NCBI GenBank assembly: GCA_030650415.1
Contig: JAUSEG010000042.1
Span: 15,052-79,051, forward strand
DNA from: a bacterium
GTDB taxonomy: Bacteria > Patescibacteriota > Patescibacteriia > Patescibacteriales > GWC2-42-12
Direction of reading: 5' to 3'
DNA: 64,000 nt
The first letter of the stretch is position 1, and each line of letters opens with the position of its first letter. Positions 2,073 through 60,244 of the stretch are shown here, one piece after another. The position numbers were made by a program, and so were the translations under genes. The notes beneath the pieces were generated by a model. That model saw only the letters and a program-made list of their open reading frames with translations. It searched no databases and had not been told where the DNA came from.

Positions 2073-2230
2073 GTCATTCCCGAAGCCAAAGGCTATCGGG
2101 AATCCAGGAGGGAAAGGTAAAAATGTTTTTTACTTTCGCCCGCTGGTTCAAGTTATTATATTAAACAGAGTTGAAGGGAAAAACACATTTTTGCTACTCA
2201 CTCCTGGATTCCCGCCTGCGCGGGAATGAC
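2073..2230. mobile_element. 158-bp MITE-like element, GTCAT...ATGAC family
   Basis: The left end is GTCATTCCCGAAGCCAAAGGCTATCGGGAATCCAGG and the right end is CCTGGATTCCCGCCTGCGCGGGAATGAC, with an AT-rich core. It has the same architecture and length as 23099-23256 and 44739-44895. Confidence 0.7.
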
Positions 2231-2238
2231 AAAATAAT

Positions 2239-3063
2239 TTATCTAACTTCACAAATTTTCGCGTATTTCCGTCCAATCTCGGCCATTTCATTCATCTGCC
2301 GGGAATTATACGGCACCTTGCCCTTTAGCTTCTGATTTACCAACTCGCTTTGGCTTTTAAAATTTTGCAGATACCATTTTCCCGCCCCCTTAATTATTTT
2401 TCCCATCTCGTTGATATCGTTTTTATCCAAGAGGTCGGGCACCACCGTAGTTCTAAATTCATAGGGCAAGCCGCTAGCTCTTATTATCTTAACACTTTTT
2501 TTTACCCCGTCAAATAATTTTGCCACGGGCAAAATTCGTTCCGCTTGGCGGGACGATTTGACGGGGTGAATATAATTAAAATCCACGCTAACTTCCGTAA
2601 CCTCGCCATACTTATATTCGGGCGCCTTTAAATCCATGGCAATATAGTCTATTAATTTCTCTTTAACCAATTCGGCTAAAACTTCCGGATAACTGCCGTT
2701 AGTATCGAGCTTTATTAAATAACCCAGAGCCTTGATTTTTTTAATAAACTCGACCAAATCTTTTTGCAAACATGGCTCGCCGCCGGTTATAACCACGGCG
2801 TCCAGCTTGCCTGACCGATCTTTCAAAAAAACAAAAAAGTCATCCTGATTTATAATCGGATGAGCTTTTTGTTGCTCGATTTCTCTTCCGCTCTCGCGAA
2901 TAAGCTCTCGAACATATTTTAACTTGCTACCCTTAACGGGCCAGACAAGCATGGGGTTATAGCAAAACTGGCAGCGGAAATTACAACCTTGGGTAAAGAC
3001 TATGGCGCTAATTTTCCCCGGGTAATCCAACAAACTGAATTTTTGCAAGCCGCCGATAATCAT
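2239..3063 (-). CDS. nrdG: anaerobic ribonucleoside-triphosphate reductase activating protein (radical SAM)
   Basis: N-terminal CNFRCQFCYNP radical-SAM CxxxCxxC motif. It lies downstream of nrdD. Confidence 0.88.
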   Translation of the reverse strand: MIIGGLQKFSLLDYPGKISAIVFTQGCNFRCQFCYNPMLVWPVKGSKLKYVRELIRESGREIEQQKAHPIINQDDFFVFLKDRSGKLDAVVITGGEPCLQKDLVEFIKKIKALGYLIKLDTNGSYPEVLAELVKEKLIDYIAMDLKAPEYKYGEVTEVSVDFNYIHPVKSSRQAERILPVAKLFDGVKKSVKIIRASGLPYEFRTTVVPDLLDKNDINEMGKIIKGAGKWYLQNFKSQSELVNQKLKGKVPYNSRQMNEMAEIGRKYAKICEVR

Positions 3064-5989: not shown

Positions 5990-6099
5990 AATTTTCTCCT
6001 CCTTGGAGGTTTAGCCCCGAAAATCGGGGCCCTGACTGGATAATTTAAGGTCAAACAAAAAAGCACTTATAATACCGACTATTCATTGAAAGTGCTTTT

Positions 6100-6155
6100 C
6101 CCCGTTAAATAAACTGCTTGGCAGTTTAAAATTTTAACAAATTTTATTAAACGGG
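6100..6155. repeat. CCCCGTTA...TAACGGGG family palindromic element
   Basis: CCCCGTTAAATAA...TTATTAAACGGGG followed by TAAA. Located in the nrdR leader. Confidence 0.6.
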
Positions 6156-6205
6156 GTAAACCTGGAATCTCTAAGCTTTATCCATATCTTGTGGTTGTTG
6201 ATTTA

Positions 6206-6233
6206 ATTATACCACTATATATAGTATGGTCAA
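6206..6233 (-). promoter_or_regulatory. candidate nrd operon promoter with an NrdR box as its spacer
   Basis: Minus sense reads TTGACC-N16-TATAAT. The 16-nt spacer ATACTATATATAGTGG (plus strand 6212-6227) matches the NrdR-box consensus acaCwAtATaTwGtgt at about 14/16. A weaker second box near 6181-6196 has its centre about 31 bp away. Confidence 0.55.
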
Positions 6234-6453: not shown

Positions 6454-6711
6454 TTAAAGATACAGCCGTTTTACTCTAATAAATTTTATTTTTTCCAATC
6501 TGGTCAGATTTTTTATCCGGCATTCCTTTTTGGCGGCTAAAGATTTGCTTTTTGCTTTAAAATAGCCGGCCAGCTTCACCGGCCGCCTGCCTCTCGTATA
6601 TTTCGCGCCTAAAATCGAGCTATTATGCTCCTTAACCCGCCTTTTTACGTCCGTCGTTATACCTGTATAGAAAGTTCCGTCCGCGCATTTTAAAATATAG
6701 ACAAACCACAT
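6454..6711 (-). CDS. GIY-YIG nuclease family protein (small, COG2827/UPF0213-like)
   Basis: MWFVYILKCADGTFYTGITTDVKRRVKEHN has the GIY..YIG-type N-terminal motifs. The track ORF is extended to 6807 only by translating repeats. Confidence 0.85.
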   Translation of the reverse strand: MWFVYILKCADGTFYTGITTDVKRRVKEHNSSILGAKYTRGRRPVKLAGYFKAKSKSLAAKKECRIKNLTRLEKIKFIRVKRLYL

Positions 6712-6744
6712 AATTATTTTGCCCCCTTTTAACAAACAGTTTTT

Positions 6745-6805
6745 GTCATTCCGGCCTCCGCCAGCTGGCGGAGAGCCTGCCTGCTGGCAGGCGAAGCTGG
6801 AATCC
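6745..6805. repeat. GTCAT-type composite palindromic unit
   Basis: GTCATTCCGGC..CCGCCAGCTGGCGG..GCCTGCCTGCTGGCAGGC..GCTGGAATCC. Sub-blocks recur at 43141-, 47363-, 59092- and 59859-. Confidence 0.75.
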
Positions 6806-6814
6806 ATTTCCTTA

Positions 6815-17935: not shown

Positions 17936-18043
17936 GCCGGACAAAGATTTTGGTTTTGAGCGCATATGAAATCGTCGCATTTTTCTCTCAAAGAAAAATG
18001 TCCAGATTTCATCTTAAGCGAAAAACCAAAACCTTTGTCCGGC
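17936..18043. repeat. 108-bp near-perfect long hairpin (four stacked stems)
   Basis: GCCGGACAAAG/CTTTGTCCGGC, ATTTTGGTTTT/AAAACCAAAA, ATGAAATC/GATTTCAT, CATTTTTCT/AGAAAAATG, with a 5-nt loop. Confidence 0.7.
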
Positions 18044-19940: not shown

Positions 19941-21119
19941 TTACATCATTTTCTTCCTGATAAACGCCGGAATGCCCAATTCATCATCTTCCAATTCGCT
20001 AGCGCCTTTCTTCTGCGCCGGTTCGGCTTGAGCCTGCTTTAAGGGAGAAATTTTGCTTTTCTTTTTGGCAATCTCTTTTTTTTCATTATCCTCTTCGGCC
20101 ATGATATAGGGATTAGGAGTATAAACTCTTTCCGCTTGAATCGCTTCGCCGCTGACGCCGATGCGACGGCCATCAAAACCGGTCGCCACGACGGTTATCT
20201 TAATTTCATCTTTATATTTTTCATCAATCACGGCGCCAAAAATAATCTTCGCGTCTTCATCAGCCGAAGAAGTAATCACCTTAGCCGCTTCGTTCACTTC
20301 GTTCATGGTTAAATTAAGGCCGCCGACAATCGTAAAGAGTATGCCCCGAGCGCCTTCAATCGACATCTCTAAGAGTGGCGAGCTGATGGCCATTTTGGCC
20401 GCTTCAATGGCTTTATTTTCTCCCGAGGCCTGGCCGATGCCCATTAGCGCCGAGCCGGCGTTAGCCATGACCGCCTTCACATCGGCAAAGTCCACGTTAA
20501 TTAAAGCCGGAATGGTAATTATTTCGGAGATGCCCTGGACGCCCTGTCTTAAAACTTCGTCCACTATCATAAAAGCGTCGAGTAGCGAAGTTTTTTTATC
20601 TATCACCTGCAATAATTTATCATTAGGAATCGTAATAATCGCGTCCACTTTATCGGCTAATTCAGACAATCCTCGTTCCGCGATATTCTTTCTTTGCGCG
20701 CCTTCAAAAGCAAAAGGCTTAGTTACCACGGCCACGGTCAAAGCGCCTAAATCTCGGGCAATCTCGGCGATAATCGGCGAAGCCCCCGTGCCTGTCCCGC
20801 CGCCCAGGCCGCAAGTTATGAAAACCATGTCAACGTCTTTCAAAATATCTCTGATTTCATTTTGCGCCTCTTCGGCCGAACGCTTGCCTAGTTCCGGATT
20901 CATGCCGGCGCCGAGTCCGCGAGTAATGGTCTTGCCGATATGGATTTTTTTCGAGGCTTTATTGGCATGCAGAGCCTGGACATCGGTATTAACCGCGATG
21001 AATTCCACGCCTCTAATCCCGCAATCAATCATGCGATTAACCGCGCTGCCGCCGGAACCGCCCACGCCGATGACTTTTATTTTGGCAAATGTTTCAACGA
21101 TTGGTTTTACTTCGGCCAT
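19941..21119 (-). CDS. ftsZ: cell division protein FtsZ
   Basis: [22 protein letters not shown] and [13 protein letters not shown] motifs. The start is taken at [21 protein letters not shown]. The 25 upstream codons of the track ORF are repeat translation. Confidence 0.95.
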
Positions 21120-21123
21120 AGAG

Positions 21124-21213
21124 TATGAATAATGAATTATGAATAACGAATTATGAATAACGCCAACCGCCCCATTTCCTCCTCCGTAATTCATGATTCA
21201 TAATTCATGATTC
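21124..21213. repeat. inverted pair of ATGAAT/ATTCAT arrays in the ftsZ leader
   Basis: Arms at 21124-21160 (tatgaataatgaattatgaataacgaattatgaataacg) and 21186-21213 (gtaattcatgattcataattcatgattc). The loop carries GGAGGAGG plus an ATG. Confidence 0.75.
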
Positions 21214-23098: not shown

Positions 23099-23256
23099 GT
23101 CATTCCCGAAGCCACAGGCTGTCGGGAATCCAGGGGTAAAATGTATAATTTTCATCTGTAAGTATATACTCACCAAATAAATAGTCTCTTATTTAATTTT
23201 TTTATTTTTATTGTTCCTGCTGTTCCCTCCTGGATTCCCGCTTGCGCGGGAATGAC
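23099..23256. mobile_element. 158-bp MITE-like element, GTCAT...ATGAC family
   Basis: GTCATTCCCGAAGCCACAGGCTGTCGGGAATCCAGGGGTAAAATGTATAATT...CCTCCTGGATTCCCGCTTGCGCGGGAATGAC. The subterminal sequence resembles the GIY-YIG element at 33139-33538. Confidence 0.7.
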
Positions 23257-23290
23257 AAAAAATGGTCTTTGTCATTTTGCATTTTGAGAT

Positions 23291-23767
23291 TTATATTTCA
23301 AAATTTTTAATAAACTCCTCCCCGATTTTTATCATTTCTTTCTTAGTCTTCACGGTCTGATCGTTATAACCTAAGAGATGCAATAACCCATGGACTAAAA
23401 TGAAAACTAATTCCTCTTGAGCGCTATGATTAAATTTACCGGCTTGCCGTTTAATTTGGCTGTAATCAATAATAATTTCGCCAAAAAAATCGCCTTCTCC
23501 TGCTTGCCCCGTCAAATTGCCCTCGGCACTATTTGATGGGGTGAAACTTAAAACATCTGTTGGCTTATTTAACTTGCGATAAGCCTGATTAATTTTTTTT
23601 ATTTCAGCGTCGGAAACGAAAGCGATAGAAACTTCTTTATGTTTTAACTTATAAACGCGCGCGAATTCGGCCGTTACTCGTTTAATTAAATTTAAATCTA
23701 TCTTATGTTCGGTCCGATTATTAATTTCTATTATTATATTTCTATCGTTCGTATTTGCATTTTCCAT
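23291..23767 (-). CDS. ybeY: rRNA maturation endoribonuclease YbeY
   Basis: HGLLHLLGYND zinc-binding motif (HGxLHLxGYDH) and the expected size. Confidence 0.88.
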   Translation of the reverse strand: MENANTNDRNIIIEINNRTEHKIDLNLIKRVTAEFARVYKLKHKEVSIAFVSDAEIKKINQAYRKLNKPTDVLSFTPSNSAEGNLTGQAGEGDFFGEIIIDYSQIKRQAGKFNHSAQEELVFILVHGLLHLLGYNDQTVKTKKEMIKIGEEFIKNFEI

Positions 23768-44738: not shown

Positions 44739-44895
44739 GTCATTCCCGAAGCCGAAGGCTGTCGGGAATCCAGGAGTTAAATGTGCTATTATTATTTATA
44801 ACATACATCTGCCAGATAAATATTCTTTTAATTAATTTTATTCTTTAATATTACTCCTGCTTTCTCTCATGGATTCCCGCCTTCGCGGGAATGAC
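44739..44895. mobile_element. 157-bp MITE-like element, GTCAT...ATGAC family
   Basis: GTCATTCCCGAAGCCGAAGGCTGTCGGGAATCCAGGAGTTAAATGT...CATGGATTCCCGCCTTCGCGGGAATGAC, followed by a CTCGCAATGAC half-unit. Confidence 0.7.
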
Positions 44896-44927
44896 AAGGA
44901 GGCTCTCGCAATGACATCCACAATATT

Positions 44928-47362: not shown

Positions 47363-47563
47363 GTCATTGCGAGGAGCGAGTGAATCCGCCAGCTGGCGGA
47401 GCAACGAGCGACGCGGCAATCTCTGGTTAGAAAAACTTAACTAATCTAATGCCAAAAACTCTTTAAGCAAAATTTAACTTATTAATATAAGCATTTCCTA
47501 TTATTTTGTCTTTCTTTTTAACCATAGATTGCCACGCCTGCCTGTTGGCAGGCTCGCAATGAC
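47363..47563. mobile_element. ~200-bp MITE-like element (GTCATTGCGAGG...GCTCGCAATGAC)
   Basis: Composite palindromic ends (CCGCCAGCTGGCGG on the left, GCCTGCCTGTTGGCAGGC on the right) flank an AT-rich core. It fills the dprA-topA spacer. Confidence 0.65.
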
Positions 47564-50695: not shown

Positions 50696-51583
50696 CTACT
50701 TAAAAACGCTAAGCAGCTTTAACCAATCATCAACCGATAATTCCTGGGCTCTAATCTTACCGTTAAACCCGGCCTGAATAATTTTATTTTCCGCATCAGC
50801 TTGATCTATCTTAAAACCGGCGGCTAGATTATTTTTTAGCATCTTTCTTCTGGCGCTAAAGCCGAATTTCACCAATTGAAAAAAGTTTTTTTCTCTCTCT
50901 ATCCCCCCTGACAAGGGGGGAAGAAGGGGGGTTTTATGGGGTATAATTTTTATTATAGCACTATCGACCTTCGGTTCCGGCCAAAAAAATTCCTTGGGCA
51001 CGAGTTTAATAATCTCCGCTTGAGCGTAAAATTTAACCGAAACGGAAAGTAAACTCATTTTCCCGGGCTTGCCCCGTGAAATGCGCTTCGCGCCCCGACT
51101 TATTGCCGGGATTTCACGGGGTGAAGCGGTAATTCTTTCCGCCACTTCCTTTTGCAGCATGAGCGCCATTAAATCGGGCTTTATTTCCGCCTCAAGAAAC
51201 TTTCTTAAAAATATGGAAGTAATGTTATATGGCAGATTCGCCACAACTTTAAATTTTGAAATTGGAAATTTTAATATGTCGCCATTTACTACTTCGACAT
51301 TCTCAATCTTCCGCGCGGCCAGTCCGATCTCTAAAACCTCGGCCAATTTATCGTCTAACTCCACGGCGATTACTTTTTTAACTCGAGCTGCTAGCTTAAA
51401 CGTCAAAAAACCTAAACCCGGTCCAACTTCTAAAACTATGTCATCAATTTTTAAATCGGCCGCGGCCACCATCTCGTCGTAAGCTTCTTCTCTAATTAAA
51501 AAATTCTGCCCTTTTGAGCGGGCAGGAATTATCTGATGCAGTTTGCACAAATTTTTAGTTTGTTCGAGTAAATCCATATACAT
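50696..51583 (-). CDS. rsmA: 16S rRNA (adenine1518/1519-N6)-dimethyltransferase
   Basis: KGQNFL, VLEVGPGLGFLT, ANLPYNI and FSARRK motifs. Contains two repeat-derived in-frame insertions. Confidence 0.9.
   Translation of the reverse strand: MYMDLLEQTKNLCKLHQIIPARSKGQNFLIREEAYDEMVAAADLKIDDIVLEVGPGLGFLTFKLAARVKKVIAVELDDKLAEVLEIGLAARKIENVEVVNGDILKFPISKFKVVANLPYNITSIFLRKFLEAEIKPDLMALMLQKEVAERITASPREIPAISRGAKRISRGKPGKMSLLSVSVKFYAQAEIIKLVPKEFFWPEPKVDSAIIKIIPHKTPLLPPLSGGIEREKNFFQLVKFGFSARRKMLKNNLAAGFKIDQADAENKIIQAGFNGKIRAQELSVDDWLKLLSVFK
50903..50931 (+). repeat. hairpin+G-run variant inside rsmA
   Basis: CCCCCCTGACAAGGGGGGAAGAAGGGGGG, read on the minus strand as PLLPPLSGG. Confidence 0.6.
51072..51121. 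repeat. 50-bp CCCCGTGAAAT...ATTTCACGGGG element inserted in frame in rsmA
   Basis: Perfect 11-bp inverted arms. It is translated as part of PREIPAISRGAKRISRGK, an 18-aa block that interrupts the usual KsgA ...A.PG.K.Y..LSV... region. Confidence 0.75.
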
Positions 51584-51627: not shown

Positions 51628-52119
51628 TTATTTGCCCCTAATTCCTGCTATAATATATTTATCAAACCAATTAATAATCTTATCCTTAAAACCGGCTTTA
51701 GCCATACAGCCATAACAACCGCCGGCTGACGCTAAAACTCCGCTGTCCATTTGTGTCATGGTCATACCTCCGGCGATTAGTTGTCCGCCAGAAGTTAAAC
51801 CGGCTTGGGCGATAGCTGTAATTAAAAAAAGCGCGTTACTACCCATGCCGCCGGCAGGTGAGCCGCTAACGTCAGAATACAAAGCGCATCTACCGACATC
51901 TAGTAAATTGCACAAAGTTCCTCCGGTACAGATAGGCGGCACTCCAGTTGTTACGCAGGGTATTACAATTACGTTAGTTAGTCCAATTTGATAGGGATAG
52001 CCGCCGGCCGATTGCGCGGCCTTAATTAAAGGAGCTTCGGGCCAGAAATAGTAAAATCCGCTGACTGAGATAATAGCAACAAAAATTAAAAATATAATGA
52101 CTTTTCTCATAGTAGTCAC
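51628..52119 (-). CDS. small secreted Cys/Gly-rich protein, hypothetical
   Basis: Signal/TM (VIIFLIFVAIISVSGFYYF). No family recognised. Confidence 0.5.
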   Translation of the reverse strand: MTTMRKVIIFLIFVAIISVSGFYYFWPEAPLIKAAQSAGGYPYQIGLTNVIVIPCVTTGVPPICTGGTLCNLLDVGRCALYSDVSGSPAGGMGSNALFLITAIAQAGLTSGGQLIAGGMTMTQMDSGVLASAGGCYGCMAKAGFKDKIINWFDKYIIAGIRGK

Positions 52120-52147
52120 ATTATACCATTTTTTAATAAAATTTTCA

Positions 52148-52228
52148 CCCCGTTAGAAATTAATCCATATTAACGGACTGTAAATCGCTTATATATCTAT
52201 AATTTTATGAATAATATTTCTAACGGGG
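52148..52228. repeat. 81-bp element with perfect 13-bp TIRs CCCCGTTAGAAAT/ATTTCTAACGGGG enclosing a start codon
   Basis: Left TIR at 52148-52160, right TIR at 52216-52228, and the ATG at 52207 inside. The outer flanks TTTTCA/TAAAAA extend the inverted repeat. Confidence 0.75.
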
Positions 52229-53196
52229 TAAAAAAATTTCTCTTAATCGGCTTAATTTTTTACCTAATATTGCCTAAGATTGCTGAAGGCGGTGGAACGC
52301 TTACCGGCAGAATATTATTGCAAGTTGAAGACAAAGGCCAAGCCTGGTATGTCAATCCGGCCGATGAAAAAAGATACAGTCTGGGCAGACCGGATGACGC
52401 TTATAATTTAATGCGAAAATTAAGTATTGGTATCAGCAACGAAGATTTAAAAAAAATACCAGTCGGTTTATCGTCTAGTAATTATCCGGACAGCGATGAA
52501 GATGGCCTTAATGATAATCTAGAAGACGCTCTAGGCACGGACAAAAATAAAACCGACACAGACGCGGACGGCTATGATGATAAAACCGAATTAACTAACG
52601 GTTATAATCCTCTTGGCTCGGGCAAACAACCGATTGATGAAAAATTCACTCGCAGTAATTCCGGCAAAATATTTTTGCAAGTGCAAAAAAATGGTGAAGC
52701 TTGGTACGTCGAACCGGTAACGCAAAAACGATATTCCCTGGGACGGCCTGGCGATGCTTTTCAGATTATGAGAACTTTCGGACTGGGTATAACCAACGCC
52801 AACTTAGAAAAAATTCCAGTCGGCCAATTGCCGATTGATCTGGATCCTACCGACCTTGACCCAATTGATCCAGACCCGTTTGATCCCGACCCGATAGATA
52901 CACTTTCCGATGATGCGTTGCAGTCAGCGGCTTCGGCTATAAGAGCAGCTGACGGTCCTAGCGCCATTTCATTTTTTACGCCGAACATGCAAAAATCAAT
53001 TGAATATTCTGTCGAGCATATGCCAAAAGAAAGCTTATTAATACTCGCCAATATCCTTTCCGGCAGTACTTTAGAATCTTCCGCAGAAACCACCAATACT
53101 TATTCCAACGAAGTTTACTTCCAAGGCGAAAAACACACGGTATATTTTTATGTGGAAAAACAGCCGGACGAAACTTGGCTCTTAACAAATCTATAA
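52207..53196 (+). CDS. secreted protein with duplicated domain, TSP3-like repeats and a (D-P-x) tract
   Basis: A signal peptide, then two copies of G.I.LQV...G.AWYV.P...KRYSLGRP.DA..., DSDEDGLNDNLED...DTDADGYDD...GYNPLGSGK, and PIDLDPTDLDPIDPDPFDPDPID. Confidence 0.65.
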   Translation: MNNISNGVKKFLLIGLIFYLILPKIAEGGGTLTGRILLQVEDKGQAWYVNPADEKRYSLGRPDDAYNLMRKLSIGISNEDLKKIPVGLSSSNYPDSDEDGLNDNLEDALGTDKNKTDTDADGYDDKTELTNGYNPLGSGKQPIDEKFTRSNSGKIFLQVQKNGEAWYVEPVTQKRYSLGRPGDAFQIMRTFGLGITNANLEKIPVGQLPIDLDPTDLDPIDPDPFDPDPIDTLSDDALQSAASAIRAADGPSAISFFTPNMQKSIEYSVEHMPKESLLILANILSGSTLESSAETTNTYSNEVYFQGEKHTVYFYVEKQPDETWLLTNL

Positions 53197-53240
53197 AAAA
53201 ACCTTAATTTTAACGCGAACAAAAAAATAGAAAATAAAAA

Positions 53241-53397
53241 GACTCTTAGCTATATTGCAAGCATAGAAAGATTTAGGATTAGATTTAGCCTGAAATTTAT
53301 TTACAAACATTTCTTTCTCCTTTTCTCATAGAAATTTTGTTAAAAATTTCAGGCTAAATCCCTAAATTTTTCGTGGCAAACAATATAGCTAAGAGCC
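53241..53397. repeat. ~157-bp long imperfect inverted repeat between convergent genes
   Basis: CTCTTAGCTATATTG...ATTTAGCCTGAAATTT // AAATTTCAGGCTAAAT...CAATATAGCTAAGAG. Confidence 0.65.
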
Positions 53398-53439
53398 TTT
53401 TTATTAAATTTGTGACGAGCGATATAGTTAAGGTCTTTT

Positions 53440-56724: not shown

Positions 56725-57021
56725 TTTTCACCCCGTGAAATAAGATTTGAGCCTTTTTCTTAAAAACATTTTACCGTAATGAGTTTTTAAATGCTTTTCG
56801 CGTCGAGTAGCATCTTGTTGATTTAAACAACTTTCGTAATAAATCAACTTCAATGGTCTTCGATTCATTGTCGACTCTACTAACCCCATAGCATGTTGCT
56901 CAAATCTTAATTTTAAATTTTTAGTATATCCAACATATTGTTTTTTATCCTTTAAACTTAACAAAACATAAGTATGATACATATTAAAACAAAATTTAAA
57001 ATTATTTCACGGGGTAAAAAC
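56725..57021. mobile_element. GIY-YIG gene bracketed by inverted repeats TTATTTCACGGGGTrAAAA
   Basis: A perfect 13-bp IR (56731-56743 CCCCGTGAAATAA; 57003-57015 TTATTTCACGGGG) extends to about 19 bp with one mismatch. The same termini occur in cargo-less elements at 51072-51121 and 52148-52228. Confidence 0.55.
56728..56982 (-). CDS. GIY-YIG nuclease family protein (84 aa)
   Basis: YHTYVLLSLKDKKQYVGYTKNLKLRFEQH...RREKHLK. The last codons (YFTG*) are encoded by the left inverted repeat. Confidence 0.85.
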   Translation of the reverse strand: MYHTYVLLSLKDKKQYVGYTKNLKLRFEQHAMGLVESTMNRRPLKLIYYESCLNQQDATRREKHLKTHYGKMFLRKRLKSYFTG

Positions 57022-57214
57022 GGGCTTAACCCTAGAGCCTATCTTAAAAATAATCTCTGGATCGTTTTCGGTCTTTTTTGGCTACAAAATTATAAAATTT
57101 TGTCGAAATAATTTATTATTCCTCCTTAATTTTCTAATTTTTCGCTCAAAAAATCCTCGAAAACGACTTAGAGCTATTTTTAAGATAGGCTCCTGAAGAA
57201 TTAAGCCCGCTTTT
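57017..57214. repeat. ~200-bp long imperfect inverted repeat
   Basis: Arms of about 50 bp (AAAACGGGCTTAA..GAGCCTATCTTAAAAATA...CGTTTTCG // CGAAAACG...TATTTTTAAGATAGGCTC..TTAAGCCCGCTTTT). Confidence 0.65.
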
Positions 57215-57893: not shown

Positions 57894-57983
57894 AGAATTA
57901 TGAATAAAGAATTATAAATTATGAGCCGTAAATTCTATTTGGCCTTTTTCCATAATTCATGATTCATTATTCATAATTCATTT
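57894..57983. repeat. inverted pair of ATGAAT/ATTCAT arrays in the pdaD leader
   Basis: Arms at 57894-57925 and 57950-57983, the same layout as the ftsZ leader. Confidence 0.7.
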
Positions 57984-58204: not shown

Positions 58205-58250
58205 AAAATAAATGCTATAATACCTATAACATTATCATAAAGCAGACAGG

Positions 58251-58346
58251 CCCCGTTAAATTAAAATGAATTTAAACTTAATATCTATTACTAATGTAAT
58301 ACTCGTTCACCTCTTCGTCAAGGTATTTAGCTTCTATTTAACGGGG
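58251..58346. repeat. 96-bp element with perfect 11-bp TIRs CCCCGTTAAAT/ATTTAACGGGG
   Basis: Ends 16 nt upstream of the dsbA-like start codon and is followed by TAAA like the other copies. Confidence 0.7.
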
Positions 58347-58361
58347 TAAACGAAAATATCA

Positions 58362-59072
58362 ATGGAATATTCAAACAAAATTTGGTTTAAGCGCTGGTGG
58401 GGCGTCTTAATAATCATAATTATCGCCATAATTTTATTTTTCCTGGCAGTCAGCGCTTCTTATTTTGTCGGAGAAATAAAAAATGCCAAGCTTAAACTTA
58501 ATCAGGCTGAACCAATCCGCCAGCTAAAGGAAAGCGGCCAGAAATATGACGCCGCCTCGGGCGATAATTATTGGCTGGGTTCGGCTAACGCCAAAATCAC
58601 CATCGTTGAATTCGGCGATTTTGCCTGTCCGGTTTGCTTGCAATCGTTCCCGACTGTCAGAGAAATTAGTTTAAGGTATAAAAATGATATTAAATTAATT
58701 TGGCGGGATTATCCGGTAGTCTCTGATTATTCAGCCAATCTGGCCTTAGCGGCCAGGTGCGCGGGCGAGCAGGGTTTGTTCTGGCCCATGCATGATAAAT
58801 TATTTCAAAACCAGGGCGTAGGCCAAACTGATGACAAAATCGCGCAATTTGACGAGTTAGCCGCCTTAGCCAATCAAATCGGCGCCAACCAAGCTAAATT
58901 TAAAGATTGCTTTGATAGGCAAAAATACTTGCCCCAAATTCAAAAAGACTTAACCGACGGGCAGGCTTTCGGCATTGCCGGCACGCCAACCTATTTTATC
59001 GATGGCTATAAGCTTGAAGGCGATGTGCCGCTTGATATTTTTATTAAAATGATTGAGCAGCTTAAAAAATAA
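58362..59072 (+). CDS. DsbA-family thiol:disulfide oxidoreductase (membrane-anchored)
   Basis: N-terminal TM, FGDFACPVC CxxC motif, and a GTPTYFIDG cis-Pro region. Confidence 0.8.
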   Translation: MEYSNKIWFKRWWGVLIIIIIAIILFFLAVSASYFVGEIKNAKLKLNQAEPIRQLKESGQKYDAASGDNYWLGSANAKITIVEFGDFACPVCLQSFPTVREISLRYKNDIKLIWRDYPVVSDYSANLALAARCAGEQGLFWPMHDKLFQNQGVGQTDDKIAQFDELAALANQIGANQAKFKDCFDRQKYLPQIQKDLTDGQAFGIAGTPTYFIDGYKLEGDVPLDIFIKMIEQLKK

Positions 59073-59091: not shown

Positions 59092-59292
59092 GGATCCGCC
59101 AGCTGGCGGAGACGAAGCAATCTTCTTAATTGTCATCCCCGACCTGATCGGGGATCCAGAAATATAGCCAGAGTATACAATTTTGGATTCTCATGGCTAC
59201 GCCAGATCTCGCATAGCGATGACCGCCTGCGCGGGAATGACAGAAACGGTGAGATTCCCGGGTCATGCCCGGGACTAAAGGCTCGCAATGAC
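59092..59292. repeat. nested repeat cluster upstream of porG
   Basis: Outer GTCATTGCGAGG...GCTCGCAATGAC. Inner 78-bp-type unit at 59132-59241, itself interrupted at 59191-59222 by a 32-bp unit that also occurs at 58029-58062. Confidence 0.75.
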
Positions 59293-60235: not shown

Positions 60236-60244
60236 CCTCATGCT

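What the first reader, a model, noticed from the sequence alone, without database searches (positions are those of the whole stretch)
52148..52228. Miniature TIR elements enclose the start codons of envelope/secreted protein genes and donate a shared N-terminus MN.(.)SNGV
Seen in sequence:
- The 81-bp unit 52148-52228 (perfect 13-bp TIRs) contains the ATG at 52207.
- The 76-bp unit 41542-41617 (perfect 11-bp TIRs) contains the ATG at 41599 of the LCP gene.
- Both proteins therefore begin MNNISNGV / MNTSNGV, with SNGV encoded by the right TIR TCTAACGGGGTA.
- A third unit (58251-58346) ends 16 nt before the dsbA-like ATG. A fourth lies in the nrdR leader (6100-6155).
- All four right ends are followed by TAAA.

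Inference, with two possibilities:
- The element has been exapted as a portable 5' UTR and start codon.
- The TIR stem, which would sequester the RBS and ATG in mRNA, acts as a shared post-transcriptional control for cell-envelope genes.
Basis: partly seen in the sequence, partly recalled or inferred. Interest (0 to 1): 0.68.

Follow-up and report, generated by a model that had tools for sequence, protein, structure and literature searches.

The report
Miniature copies of a GIY-YIG cassette
The small inverted-repeat units at these gene starts are gene-less miniature copies of a roughly 290-bp selfish DNA cassette that encodes an 84-residue GIY-YIG nuclease; in two genes they landed in the start codon and now supply a replacement start and a few extra N-terminal residues, which looks like a side effect and not a shared control system.

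Summary
The window holds seven inverted pairs of the type (T)TYA-CCCCGT-N-AAAT ... ATTT-N-ACGGGG-TRA, not four.

- Two pairs enclose the ATGs at 52207 and 41599.
- Two pairs lie in frame inside rsmA and an nrdG-like gene.
- One pair (56730-57017) encloses an 84-aa GIY-YIG gene.

The right arm equals that gene's last codons plus stop (TAT TTN ACG GGG TRA, i.e. Y-F/L-T-G-stop). More than 3,000 homologues were found, and 19 of the 20 fetched end in SY(F/L)(T/S)G. In 34 unique cassettes the gene is preceded by the complementary arm, and synonymous changes are compensated in that arm. The short units are therefore ORF-less derivatives of this cassette. I found more than 100 of them across many phyla.

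Orthologous loci show empty and filled sites:
- Orthologues lacking the element start MKK... or M(N/D)... exactly where the window proteins have the V of ...SNGV.
- In the cleanest comparison the insertion splits AT|G and recreates an in-frame GTG.
- In the window that codon is GTA, so the element's internal ATG must serve as start.

The closest known system is Ssn nucleases with NTS hairpin repeats (Chenal 2025). These arms do not match the published repeat motif, and the architecture differs. A regulon for envelope genes is not supported.

The parts
52145..52229 (+). ORF-less miniature copy (85 nt, TCA-CCCCGTTAGAAAT ... ATTTCTAACGGGG-T). It is inserted in the start codon of the 329-aa secreted protein gene. 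Arms are 52147-52160 and 52216-52229; the replacement ATG is at 52207.
   Evidence: Searches show the sequence and arms. Empty orthologous sites L121 and L123 read ...TATAAAAT ATG AAA AAA. Filled sites L122 and L125 and the window read AT[TCACCC(C)GT...GGGGT]G/A AAAAAA.
52207..53196 (+). Gene for a 329-aa secreted protein with no Pfam family. Its first 7 codons (MNNISNG) and the V codon GTA come from, or abut, the element.
   Evidence: Eight of the 30 closest listed homologues (P0122-P0151) start M..ISNGVKK-type; the other 22 start MKK.
41539..41618 (+). ORF-less miniature copy (80 nt) at the start of the LCP gene. Arms are 41542-41552 and 41607-41617, with an extra internal partial arm at 41558-41566. 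The replacement ATG is at 41599.
   Evidence: The empty orthologue L206 reads ...ATAAAT ATG AAT GAG ATA GAT CTG, against ...ACGGGGTA AAT GAG ATA GAT CTG in the window. The promoter-like TTGTCA-17-TATAAT at 41486-41514 lies upstream.
41599..43107 (+). LCP (LytR-CpsA-Psr) family gene. MNTSNGV precedes the conserved NEIDLLNSKINPP N-terminus.
   Evidence: PF03816, PF13399.
58248..58347 (.). ORF-less miniature copy (100 nt, arms 58251-58261 and 58336-58346), 14 nt upstream of the DsbA-like ATG at 58362.
6097..6157 (.). Degenerate ORF-less copy (61 nt). It lies between an NrdR-box-like palindrome (6211-6229) and the nrdR start (5989, minus strand).
51071..51124 (-). 54-nt in-frame copy inside rsmA/ksgA, with an outer stem and two 3-nt-loop hairpins. 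It is translated as SPREIPAISRGAKRISRG.
   Evidence: The stretch is inserted relative to PDB KsgA. It is absent from orthologues L121, L122 and L123 and present in L125. The junction is GCT^[TCACCCCGT...ACGGGGY]^AAG. The RNA fold is -35.4 kcal/mol, z = -5.7.
2502..2569 (.). 66-nt copy (outer bounds given) lying in frame inside the nrdG-like radical-SAM activase CDS, with an outer stem and two hairpins. It is translated as ...HPVKSSRQAERILPVAKLFDGV...
   Evidence: The fold is -35.1 kcal/mol, z = -6.7. It has not been verified as an insertion, because the PDB alignment did not reach this region.
56730..57017 (-). Full-length cassette of 288 nt: TTA-CCCCGTGAAATAA, a 20-nt spacer, the 84-codon GIY-YIG ORF (56728-56982), and a right arm formed by TAT TTC ACG GGG T(GA).
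   Evidence: Homologous cassettes with the same anatomy occur in L114-L120 and L126-L205.
23507..23517 (.). Orphan arm CCCCGTCAAAT with no partner, inside ORF 23291-23767.
   Evidence: not followed up.

Best explanation
The units are non-autonomous, ORF-less miniature derivatives of a very small selfish cassette of about 290 bp.

Anatomy of the cassette:
- a left arm, TYA-CCCNGT-N-AAAT;
- a spacer of about 20 nt;
- an 84-codon single-domain GIY-YIG nuclease gene;
- a right arm that is the gene's own last codons and stop (TAT TTN ACN GGG TRA = Y-F/L-T-G-stop) and is complementary to the left arm.

Shown:
- The arms of the short units are the two ends of this cassette.
- Arm variants follow synonymous or conservative codon variants (TTC, TTA, TTG, CTA; ACG, ACA, ACT), and the upstream arm compensates for them.
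- Copies are present or absent at identical positions in orthologous loci. They lie after a T and before RA, with no evident target duplication.
- At start codons of the type ATG-AAN or ATG-GAN, the cleanest comparison shows the insertion splitting AT|G. The element's terminal GT plus the target G recreates an in-frame GTG.
- In the window that codon has become GTA. The in-frame ATG inside the element (52207, 41599) is therefore the only start, which gives the shared MN..SNGV N-terminus.

Inferred, by analogy with SsnA (a hairpin-guided nuclease specific for single-stranded DNA):
- In single-stranded DNA the two arms pair into a 12-16-bp stem. The ORF, or 0-2 small hairpins, sits in the loop.
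- The GIY-YIG nuclease recognises this stem and nicks beside it.
- That nick starts seamless excision, copying or insertion.

The position at envelope-gene starts is most simply explained by target preference (T^RAA fits ATG-AAA and ATG-AAT) plus tolerance of such insertions, not by a regulatory role.

The confidence given applies to the identity and origin of the units; I would put the inferred single-strand nicking mechanism at about 0.4.
For: - Seven pairs in the window, with the variable base matching between arms.
- One pair encloses the GIY-YIG ORF, whose stop codon lies in the arm.
- Homologues: 3,198 proteins, most of them 84 aa, and 19 of the 20 fetched end in ...RLKSY(F/L)(T/S)G (the 20th carries the motif followed by an 18-residue extension).
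- Across the 75 fetched loci scanned, I extracted 34 unique cassettes from other organisms. All carry the complementary upstream arm. The F/L codon's third base pairs Watson-Crick with the left arm in 34 of 34. The Thr codon's third base is Watson-Crick in 24 and a transition mismatch in 10, never a transversion.
- The same short elements occur in more than 112 loci from Patescibacteria, WOR-3, Stahlbacteria, Cloacimonadota, Bacteroidota, Verrucomicrobiota, Gammaproteobacteria and Omnitrophota. Copies within one genome share internal sequence.
- Empty versus filled sites: the 329-aa gene, rsmA and LCP.
- N-termini of orthologues.
- The GIY-YIG protein is 36% identical to a second GIY-YIG protein in the window that is bracketed by canonical NTS hairpins.
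- Ssn biology is taken from PMC11893778.
Against: - No biochemical or read-level evidence of movement. Presence and absence could also come from recombination with empty alleles.
- No 84-aa GIY-YIG gene lies within the 8-kb loci that carry short elements in other phyla, so co-occurrence in the same genome is untested outside this window.
- GIY-YIG enzymes are hydrolytic and have no known strand-transfer activity, so the mobility mechanism is unknown.
- The arms might originally be a target palindrome that the nuclease gene invaded, and not the ends of a transposon.
- The nrdG copy is not verified as an insertion.
- The L207/L208 LCP junction is too diverged to fix to the nucleotide.
Confidence: 0.8

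Rival explanations
1. Shared post-transcriptional control. The arm-arm stem in the mRNA sequesters the start region of cell-envelope genes, so the elements define a regulon.
For: - Stems are predicted at -20.9 to -24.1 kcal/mol with the ATG inside.
- For LCP a conserved promoter-like site lies upstream, so both arms would be transcribed.
- Three of the seven copies abut envelope or secretory genes.
Against: - The same element lies in frame in rsmA and an nrdG-like gene, upstream of nrdR, and around its own nuclease gene.
- Most orthologues of both genes lack it.
- In other phyla there is no bias towards gene starts over gene ends.
- The interior sequence is not conserved between copies.
Confidence: 0.07
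2. A structured non-coding RNA, a three-way junction with a conserved closing stem, that acts at the RNA level, for example as a processing or stability element. On this view the DNA-level mobility is secondary.
For: - Forty of 105 unique short elements fold as an outer stem plus two hairpins whose sequences differ between loci.
- Fold z-scores are -5.7 and -6.7 for the two in-CDS copies.
- T.G combinations would be G.U pairs in RNA.
Against: - No Rfam family matches.
- The element and its reverse complement are equally structured, and copies occur in both orientations relative to neighbouring genes.
- Loops are mostly 3 nt with C-G closure and no strand bias (GAA about as common as TTC). This is typical of DNA palindromes, not of GNRA or UNCG RNA loops.
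- C.A mismatches are as common as T.G.
- Sixty of 105 have an unstructured interior.
Confidence: 0.07
3. Invertible segments (invertons). A site-specific recombinase would flip the DNA between the inverted repeats and switch the downstream genes on and off.
For: - Perfect inverted repeats flank promoter-proximal DNA and start codons of surface-protein genes.
- Relative to the asymmetric outer triplets, the nuclease gene occurs in both configurations (TCA...TAA 19, TTA...TGA 11).
Against: - The segments of 28-74 bp are very short for intramolecular recombination.
- The three orthologous filled sites (window, L122, L125) all have the same internal orientation.
- Copies inside coding sequences would be destroyed by inversion.
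- Empty sites exist, which inversion does not produce.
Confidence: 0.03
4. Paired operator half-sites for a DNA-binding regulator that loops the promoter DNA.
For: A conserved 10-16-nt motif in inverted orientation lies in divergent promoter regions.
Against: - Spacing varies from 28 to 258 bp.
- The variable positions co-vary between the two arms, which a protein-binding site does not predict.
- Copies lie inside coding regions.
- The right arm is the 3' end of a gene in the full-length form.
Confidence: 0.02

Closest known systems
Ssn nucleases and their NTS/SRM hairpin repeats (Chenal et al. 2025, Nat Commun, PMC11893778)
   Same: - A single-domain GIY-YIG protein of about 85-95 aa whose gene is bracketed by a cognate repeated sequence.
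- The repeat is dispersed in many copies through the genome and across many phyla.
- The repeats are predicted to form stems in single-stranded DNA.
- The authors already noted that NTS-ssnA-NTS looks like an insertion sequence.
- The window itself also carries 10 canonical NTS-type repeats and an NTS-bracketed GIY-YIG gene.
   Different: - The arms do not match the published SRM pattern HGTCWY....
- Each arm is not a hairpin on its own. The two arms pair with each other, so the gene, or 0-2 small hairpins, sits in the loop.
- The right arm is the gene's C-terminal codons and stop.
- Short ORF-less units with both ends exist.
- Copies are inserted in frame in genes and in start codons.
- Membership of the 84-aa clade in cd10448 was not testable here.
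IS200/IS605 elements and REP/RAYT repeats
   Same: - Very small elements or repeats whose ends are recognised as DNA secondary structures.
- Insertion next to a short specific sequence without target duplication.
- Seamless excision.
- Abundant non-autonomous palindromic derivatives.
   Different: - The enzyme here is a GIY-YIG hydrolase, not a Y1 (HUH) transposase.
- The ends form one long inter-arm stem, not two subterminal hairpins.
- No transposition chemistry is known for GIY-YIG.
Rickettsia palindromic elements (RPE); from my own knowledge, Ogata et al. 2000
   Same: Short palindromic selfish repeats found in frame inside protein-coding genes and translated as extra peptide segments, as in rsmA here.
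   Different: - No sequence relation was tested.
- To my knowledge, no RPE family has been linked to an autonomous element whose ends match.
- The Ssn paper lists Rickettsia among SRM-rich genera.
Bacterial MITEs such as Neisseria Correia elements
   Same: Small, ORF-less, inverted-repeat-bounded, multi-copy elements that often sit in 5' regions, where they can change expression or the coding ends of neighbouring genes.
   Different: Classical MITEs derive from DDE-transposase insertion sequences and make target-site duplications. Here the matching full-length element encodes a GIY-YIG nuclease, and no duplication is seen at the two clean junctions.

Membership tests
MITE (miniature inverted-repeat transposable element) | Small (under about 300 bp), no ORF of its own, terminal inverted repeats, multiple copies | tested here: met
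   Units of 54-100 nt with 7-14-nt perfect arms; six ORF-less copies in 64 kb; more than 100 elsewhere.
MITE (miniature inverted-repeat transposable element) | A full-length element with the same ends exists | tested here: met
   The 288-nt cassette at 56730-57017 and 34 unique homologous cassettes.
MITE (miniature inverted-repeat transposable element) | Target-site duplication flanking the insertion | tested here: not met
   The empty/filled comparisons give AT^G and GCT^AAG with at most a 1-nt ambiguity and no direct repeat.
MITE (miniature inverted-repeat transposable element) | Mobilised by a transposase (classically DDE) encoded by the parent insertion sequence | tested here: not met
   The only protein in the parent cassette is an 84-aa GIY-YIG domain (PF01541).
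Ssn / SRM system | Single-domain GIY-YIG protein of about 90-100 aa | tested here: met
   84 aa with PF01541 only. Nearest solved structures are the UPF0213 proteins 1zg2 and 1ywl. It is 36% identical to an NTS-bracketed GIY-YIG in the same window.
Ssn / SRM system | Protein falls in the CDD family cd10448 | not testable with these tools
   No CDD search is available. NCBIfam gives only a weak hit, below threshold, to a group I intron endonuclease model.
Ssn / SRM system | Gene flanked on both sides by its cognate repeat | tested here: met
   All 34 unique cassettes have the arm on both sides, but as two halves of a single stem.
Ssn / SRM system | Repeat matches the SRM pattern HGTCWYN(0-2)YYVSBRHN(0-5)WNVSBRGN(0-2)RNCYNB | tested here: not met
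   The ten SRM matches in the window are all NTS-type hairpins elsewhere. None overlaps a CCCCGT/ACGGGG arm.
Ssn / SRM system | Site-specific cleavage of single-stranded DNA only, guided by the folded repeat | not testable with these tools
   This needs biochemistry.
IS200/IS605 | Y1/HUH transposase TnpA and subterminal imperfect hairpins | tested here: not met
   There is no such ORF in the cassette, and the ends pair with each other.
Inverton (invertible promoter) | Both orientations of the segment are found at the same locus | tested here: not met
   The window, L122 and L125 share one orientation, and L121 and L123 are empty. Read-level data were not available.
Any Rfam RNA family | Covariance-model match | tested here: not met
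   No match at gathering threshold in the window. No match at the element positions at E <= 5 in nine loci.

The most novel reading that the evidence does not exclude
The arm-GIY-YIG-arm unit of about 290 bp would be an autonomous mobile element of a new class and among the smallest known.

- Its 84-aa nuclease would recognise the stem formed by the element's own two ends in single-stranded DNA.
- The stem would be marked by a conserved T.G or C.A mismatch three pairs from the end, which tells the two strands apart.
- The nuclease would drive seamless excision and insertion at T^RA sites, and would mobilise ORF-less copies in trans.
- Because T^RAA overlaps ATG-AAN, the element would repeatedly enter start codons while regenerating a GTG, an insertion mode that is nearly neutral by construction.
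Probability: 0.3. Interest if true: 0.85.

Novelty: new variant of a known kind. Interest (0 to 1): 0.6.

Why it matters
- It links a widespread, unannotated class of small palindromic repeats to a specific 84-aa nuclease gene. The repeats occur in Patescibacteria, WOR-3, Bacteroidota, Verrucomicrobiota and other phyla.
- It supplies comparative evidence that such GIY-YIG/repeat units come and go at precise positions, in the form of empty and filled orthologous sites. The Ssn paper could only suggest this from the gene architecture.
- It explains odd gene starts and in-frame peptide insertions in genomes of uncultivated bacteria. This matters for annotation, because gene callers place false GTG starts in the arm and extend N-termini.
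- It offers a defined enzyme-substrate pair, with natural sequence variants, for the single-stranded-DNA tool development proposed for Ssn nucleases.

Tried and rejected
- **Known RNA genes.** Rfam at gathering threshold on the window, Rfam at E <= 5 on nine loci, and a tRNA scan gave nothing at the elements.
- **Integron attC sites.** Rejected by inspection. attC has the AAC half on the left and the GTT half on the right. Here the order is reversed, and the variable base also gives GTC/GAC and GTG/CAC.
- **dif/Xer sites.** The resemblance to GTTAAAT is limited to 7 nt and the orientation is wrong.
- **Intrinsic terminators.** No T-run follows the stems.
- **A promoter inside the element.** TATAAT lies 4 nt before the ATG at 52207, too close to serve that ATG.
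- **GIY-YIG genes near short elements in other phyla.** None within the 8-kb loci.
- **Look-up of P0004.** Not on record.
- **PDB alignment of the nrdG-like protein.** It did not reach the element, so that insertion is unverified.
- **The L207/L208 LCP junction.** Too diverged upstream to place the boundary to the nucleotide.
- **My first orientation rule** (TTTA on the left, TGAA on the right). It turned out not to define polarity, because both TCA...TAA and TTA...TGA occur in the gene's orientation.

Full report
**1. The observation**

The sequence statements hold.
- Unit 52148-52228 has arms that are perfect over 14 nt (52147-52160 / 52216-52229) and contains the ATG at 52207.
- Unit 41542-41617 has perfect 11-nt arms and contains the ATG at 41599.
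- In both units TCT AAC GGG GTA encodes SNGV.
- A third unit ends about 15 nt before the ATG of a DsbA-type gene, and a fourth, degenerate unit lies upstream of nrdR.
- All four right ends continue with TAAA.
- Pfam confirms the LCP, DsbA-like and NrdR identities.

The motif is over-represented: TAACGGGG occurs 10 times against 2.4 expected, and no shuffle out of 100 reached 10.

Relaxing the motif to its core ACGGGG showed seven inverted pairs, not four. The extra three are:
- 2504-2567, inside an nrdG-like radical-SAM gene;
- 51072-51121, inside rsmA;
- 56730-57015, which encloses a whole 84-codon ORF.

In each pair the variable base next to the core is the same in both arms (TTTG/TTTG, TTTC/TTTC, TTTA/TTTA, TCTA/TCTA). 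The sequences between the arms are unrelated across most pairs.

**2. What the arms are**

The enclosed ORF (56728-56982, minus strand) is a GIY-YIG nuclease. Its last codons and stop, TAT TTC ACG GGG TGA, are the arm itself.

A protein search found 3,198 homologues. Most are 84 aa and 75-92% identical. Of the 20 I fetched, 19 end in ...RLKSY(F/L)(T/S)G and the 20th carries the motif followed by an 18-residue extension.

This explains the arm variants seen in the window:
- ATTT-C, -A or -G-ACGGGG corresponds to Phe TTC or Leu TTA/TTG.
- The ATCTAACGGGG form found at the two gene starts corresponds to Leu CTA.
- The following TRA is the stop codon, TGA or TAA.

In homologous loci from other organisms the gene is always preceded, about 20-25 nt before its ATG, by the complementary arm T(C/T)A-CCCNGT-N-AAAT. 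The loci come from an Elusimicrobia MAG and many metagenomes (L114-L120, L126-L205), and across the 75 fetched loci scanned they yield 34 unique cassettes.
- The third base of the F/L codon pairs Watson-Crick with the upstream arm in 34 of 34 cassettes, across two to three variants.
- The third base of the Thr codon (ACG, ACA, ACT, ACC) is matched by CCCCGT, CCCTGT or CCCAGT in 24. It forms a transition mismatch in 10 and never a transversion mismatch.

Complementarity between the two ends is therefore under selection. The short units in the window are ORF-less versions carrying both ends of this cassette.

**3. Distribution**

I scanned one genome per species with CCCCGTNAAAT-N(26-56)-ATTTNACGGGG. 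The loci come from:
- Patescibacteria (Moranbacteria, Parcubacteria, Gracilibacteria, Saccharibacteria);
- WOR-3, Stahlbacteria, Cloacimonadota and Bacteroidota;
- Verrucomicrobiota, Gammaproteobacteria, Omnitrophota and others.

Further points:
- Several genomes have many copies that share internal sequence, which is the signature of amplification.
- Of 105 unique short elements, 40 fold as an outer stem plus two small hairpins, 5 have one hairpin, and 60 have an AT-rich, weakly structured interior. Loops are mostly 3 nt.
- The two in-CDS copies in the window belong to the two-hairpin type (z = -5.7 and -6.7). The copies at gene starts belong to the AT-rich type.
- No Rfam family matches.
- The elements are mostly intergenic. 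About one in five lies inside a long ORF. They are about as often within 30-40 nt of a gene end (19) as of a gene start (17).

**4. Empty and filled sites**

(a) The 329-aa secreted protein.
- Orthologous loci are syntenic (rsmA, a 163-171-aa gene, this gene, then leuS).
- L121 and L123 read ...TTTTATAAAAT ATG AAA AAA.
- L122, L125 and the window read ...AAAAT AT[TCACCC(C)GTTAGAAAT ... ATTTCTAA(C/T)GGGGT](G/A) AAA AAA.
- The element therefore sits between AT and G of the start codon, with a 1-nt ambiguity. Its terminal GT plus the target G gives an in-frame GTG, which L122 still has.
- In the window and in L125 the codon is GTA, which cannot initiate. The in-frame ATG inside the element must then be the start.
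- At the protein level, 8 of the 30 closest listed homologues (P0122-P0151) begin with an M..ISNGVKK-type extension (for example MNNISNGVKK, MNQISNGVKK, MNIISNGVKK). The other 22 begin MKK.
- L121 (empty) and L122 (filled) are each other's closest relatives, at 84% nucleotide identity. So there have been either repeated gains at the same nucleotide or precise losses.

(b) rsmA.
- The window and L125 carry a 54-nt in-frame insertion, GCT^[TCACCCCGT...ACGGGGY]^AAG, which encodes SPREIPAISRGAKRISRG.
- It is absent from L121, L122 and L123, and from solved KsgA structures.

(c) LCP.
- Orthologues begin MNEIDLLNSKINPP or MDKKIDLLNS. The window has MNTSNGV-NEIDLLNSKINPP.
- Four other diverged lineages have MKISNGV-(D/S/N)..I(D/N)LL.
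- At the DNA level, L206 has ATAAAT ATG AAT GAG where the window has ...ACGGGGTA AAT GAG. L207 keeps GTG.

From the two clean junctions, the element is 5'-TYA CCCNGT ... ACNGGG Y-3'. It is inserted after T and before RA, without an evident duplication. The base before TYA is T in 34 of 34 cassettes.

**5. Relation to gene starts**

- In 13 of 34 unique cassettes a co-oriented ORF of at least 60 codons starts between -4 and +6 nt from the nuclease's stop codon.
- Some left flanks look like ribosome-binding sites: GAGGT|TTA, GGGAGGT|TTA, AAGAGGT|TCA.

A target of the form RT^RAA fits both ...GGT^GAA near ribosome-binding sites and AT^GAA(A/T) at start codons followed by Lys or Asn codons. That would explain why two envelope genes were hit in the same way.

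I see no evidence for a regulon:
- The hosts of the seven copies are functionally unrelated.
- Most orthologues lack the element.
- The interiors are not conserved.

The mRNA stem is plausible. For LCP a conserved TTGTCA-17-TATAAT lies upstream of the insertion, so both arms would be transcribed. Its effect is unknown.

**6. Comparison with what is known**

The closest described system is the Ssn family (Chenal et al. 2025, PMC11893778).
- Ssn proteins are single-domain GIY-YIG proteins of about 94 aa.
- They cut single-stranded DNA next to a hairpin repeat (NTS or SRM).
- Their genes are bracketed by those repeats. The authors noted that this architecture resembles an insertion sequence.

The window itself holds 10 canonical SRM matches against 0.08 in shuffles. 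It also holds a second GIY-YIG gene (33184-33477) bracketed by NTS-like hairpins. That protein is 36% identical to the 84-aa one.

The element studied here differs in five ways:
- Its arms do not match the SRM pattern.
- Neither arm is a hairpin alone. The two arms pair across the gene.
- The right arm is coding sequence.
- Two-ended ORF-less derivatives exist.
- Copies enter coding sequences and start codons.

I could not test membership in cd10448 or single-strand specificity. The library searches found no other paper describing this architecture.

In behaviour it also resembles IS200/IS605 and REP elements (structure-defined ends, no duplication, seamless sites) and Rickettsia palindromic elements (in-frame insertions).

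**7. Mechanism and confidence**

Shown:
- the anatomy of the cassette;
- the derivation of the short units from it;
- selection for complementarity between the arms;
- precise presence/absence polymorphism;
- the origin of the MN..SNGV N-terminus.

Inferred by analogy with SsnA:
- the arms pair in single-stranded DNA;
- the nuclease recognises and nicks the stem foot;
- this drives mobility.

How a hydrolytic GIY-YIG enzyme would achieve excision or insertion is unknown. I put the identity and origin of the units at about 0.8 and the inferred nicking mechanism at about 0.4.

**8. An unexplained regularity**

The third pair from the outer end is almost always a transition mismatch: TCA with TAA 19 times, TTA with TGA 11 times, and Watson-Crick combinations only 4 times. 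The same holds in the short elements. One strand's stem therefore has a T.G and the other a C.A, which could mark the processed strand.

**9. Verdict**

The regulon idea is not supported.
- The novelty class is a new variant of a known kind (Ssn-type GIY-YIG nucleases with cognate repeats, behaving like MITEs).

Noticed in passing
window 2204-2231, 23230-23257, 39037-39064, 39079-39106, 40603-40631, 40655-40682, 44869-44896, 59131-59159, 60244-60272, 62784-62811: Ten matches to the published Ssn-related motif, nearly identical to the Neisseria NTS consensus (TGTCATTCCCGCGMAGGCGGGAATCCAG), against 0.08 expected in shuffles. The genome therefore hosts a second, canonical GIY-YIG/hairpin-repeat system.
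   Followed up: partly
window 33184-33477 (-) with 33139-33165 and 33512-33538; window 6454-6807 (-): Two further small GIY-YIG ORFs. The first is bracketed on both sides by NTS-like hairpins (GTCATTGCGGCCTCCGAGCCGCAATCC). The second has degenerate NTS-like sequences on both sides.
   Followed up: partly
34 unique cassettes in L114-L205 and window 56730-57017: The third base pair from the outer end of the arms is systematically a transition mismatch: TCA with TAA 19 times, TTA with TGA 11 times, Watson-Crick combinations 4 times. The gene occurs in both configurations. This remains unexplained.
   Followed up: partly
window 6211-6229: An NrdR-box-like palindrome, ACCACTATATATAGTATGG, lies about 220 nt upstream of nrdR. 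The degenerate element at 6097-6157 sits between the box and the gene.
   Followed up: no
L123, L125, L122 and window rsmA (50696-51583): rsmA orthologues carry several other lineage-specific in-frame insertions, for example RFARSGEARQIRNP and segments of the type PLVRGGI, PPCQGGV, PPLSGGI and SPFVKGGI. They look like translated palindromic repeats of other families.
   Followed up: no
window 53233-53405, 53282-53360, 57035-57192, 17936-18043, 47412-47536: Other long inverted repeats lie in intergenic DNA: 45-nt arms at 82%, and 17-nt, 18-nt and 22-nt near-perfect arms. They are unrelated in sequence to the CCCCGT element.
   Followed up: no
window 21117-21213 and 57895-57979: AT-rich repeats of the type GAATTATGAATAA form inverted arrays in two intergenic regions.
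   Followed up: no
window 56728-56731; L114 5258, L115 5259, L116 5259: Public gene calls, and simple ORF rules, start the gene downstream of a cassette at the GTG inside ACGGGGTGAA or directly after the stop. A conventional ATG lies 2-10 nt further on. This is probably a systematic annotation artefact caused by the arm.
   Followed up: partly
window 52091-52148 (-) and 41486-41514 (+): The minus-strand gene 51628-52110 has an extended -10 (TGgTATAAT) only 9 nt before its ATG, so its mRNA would be nearly leaderless. In orthologues without the element, the LCP promoter-like site leaves a leader of only about 7 nt.
   Followed up: no
window 23507-23517: An orphan arm, CCCCGTCAAAT, with no partner lies inside ORF 23291-23767. 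It may be a remnant of a decayed copy.
   Followed up: no
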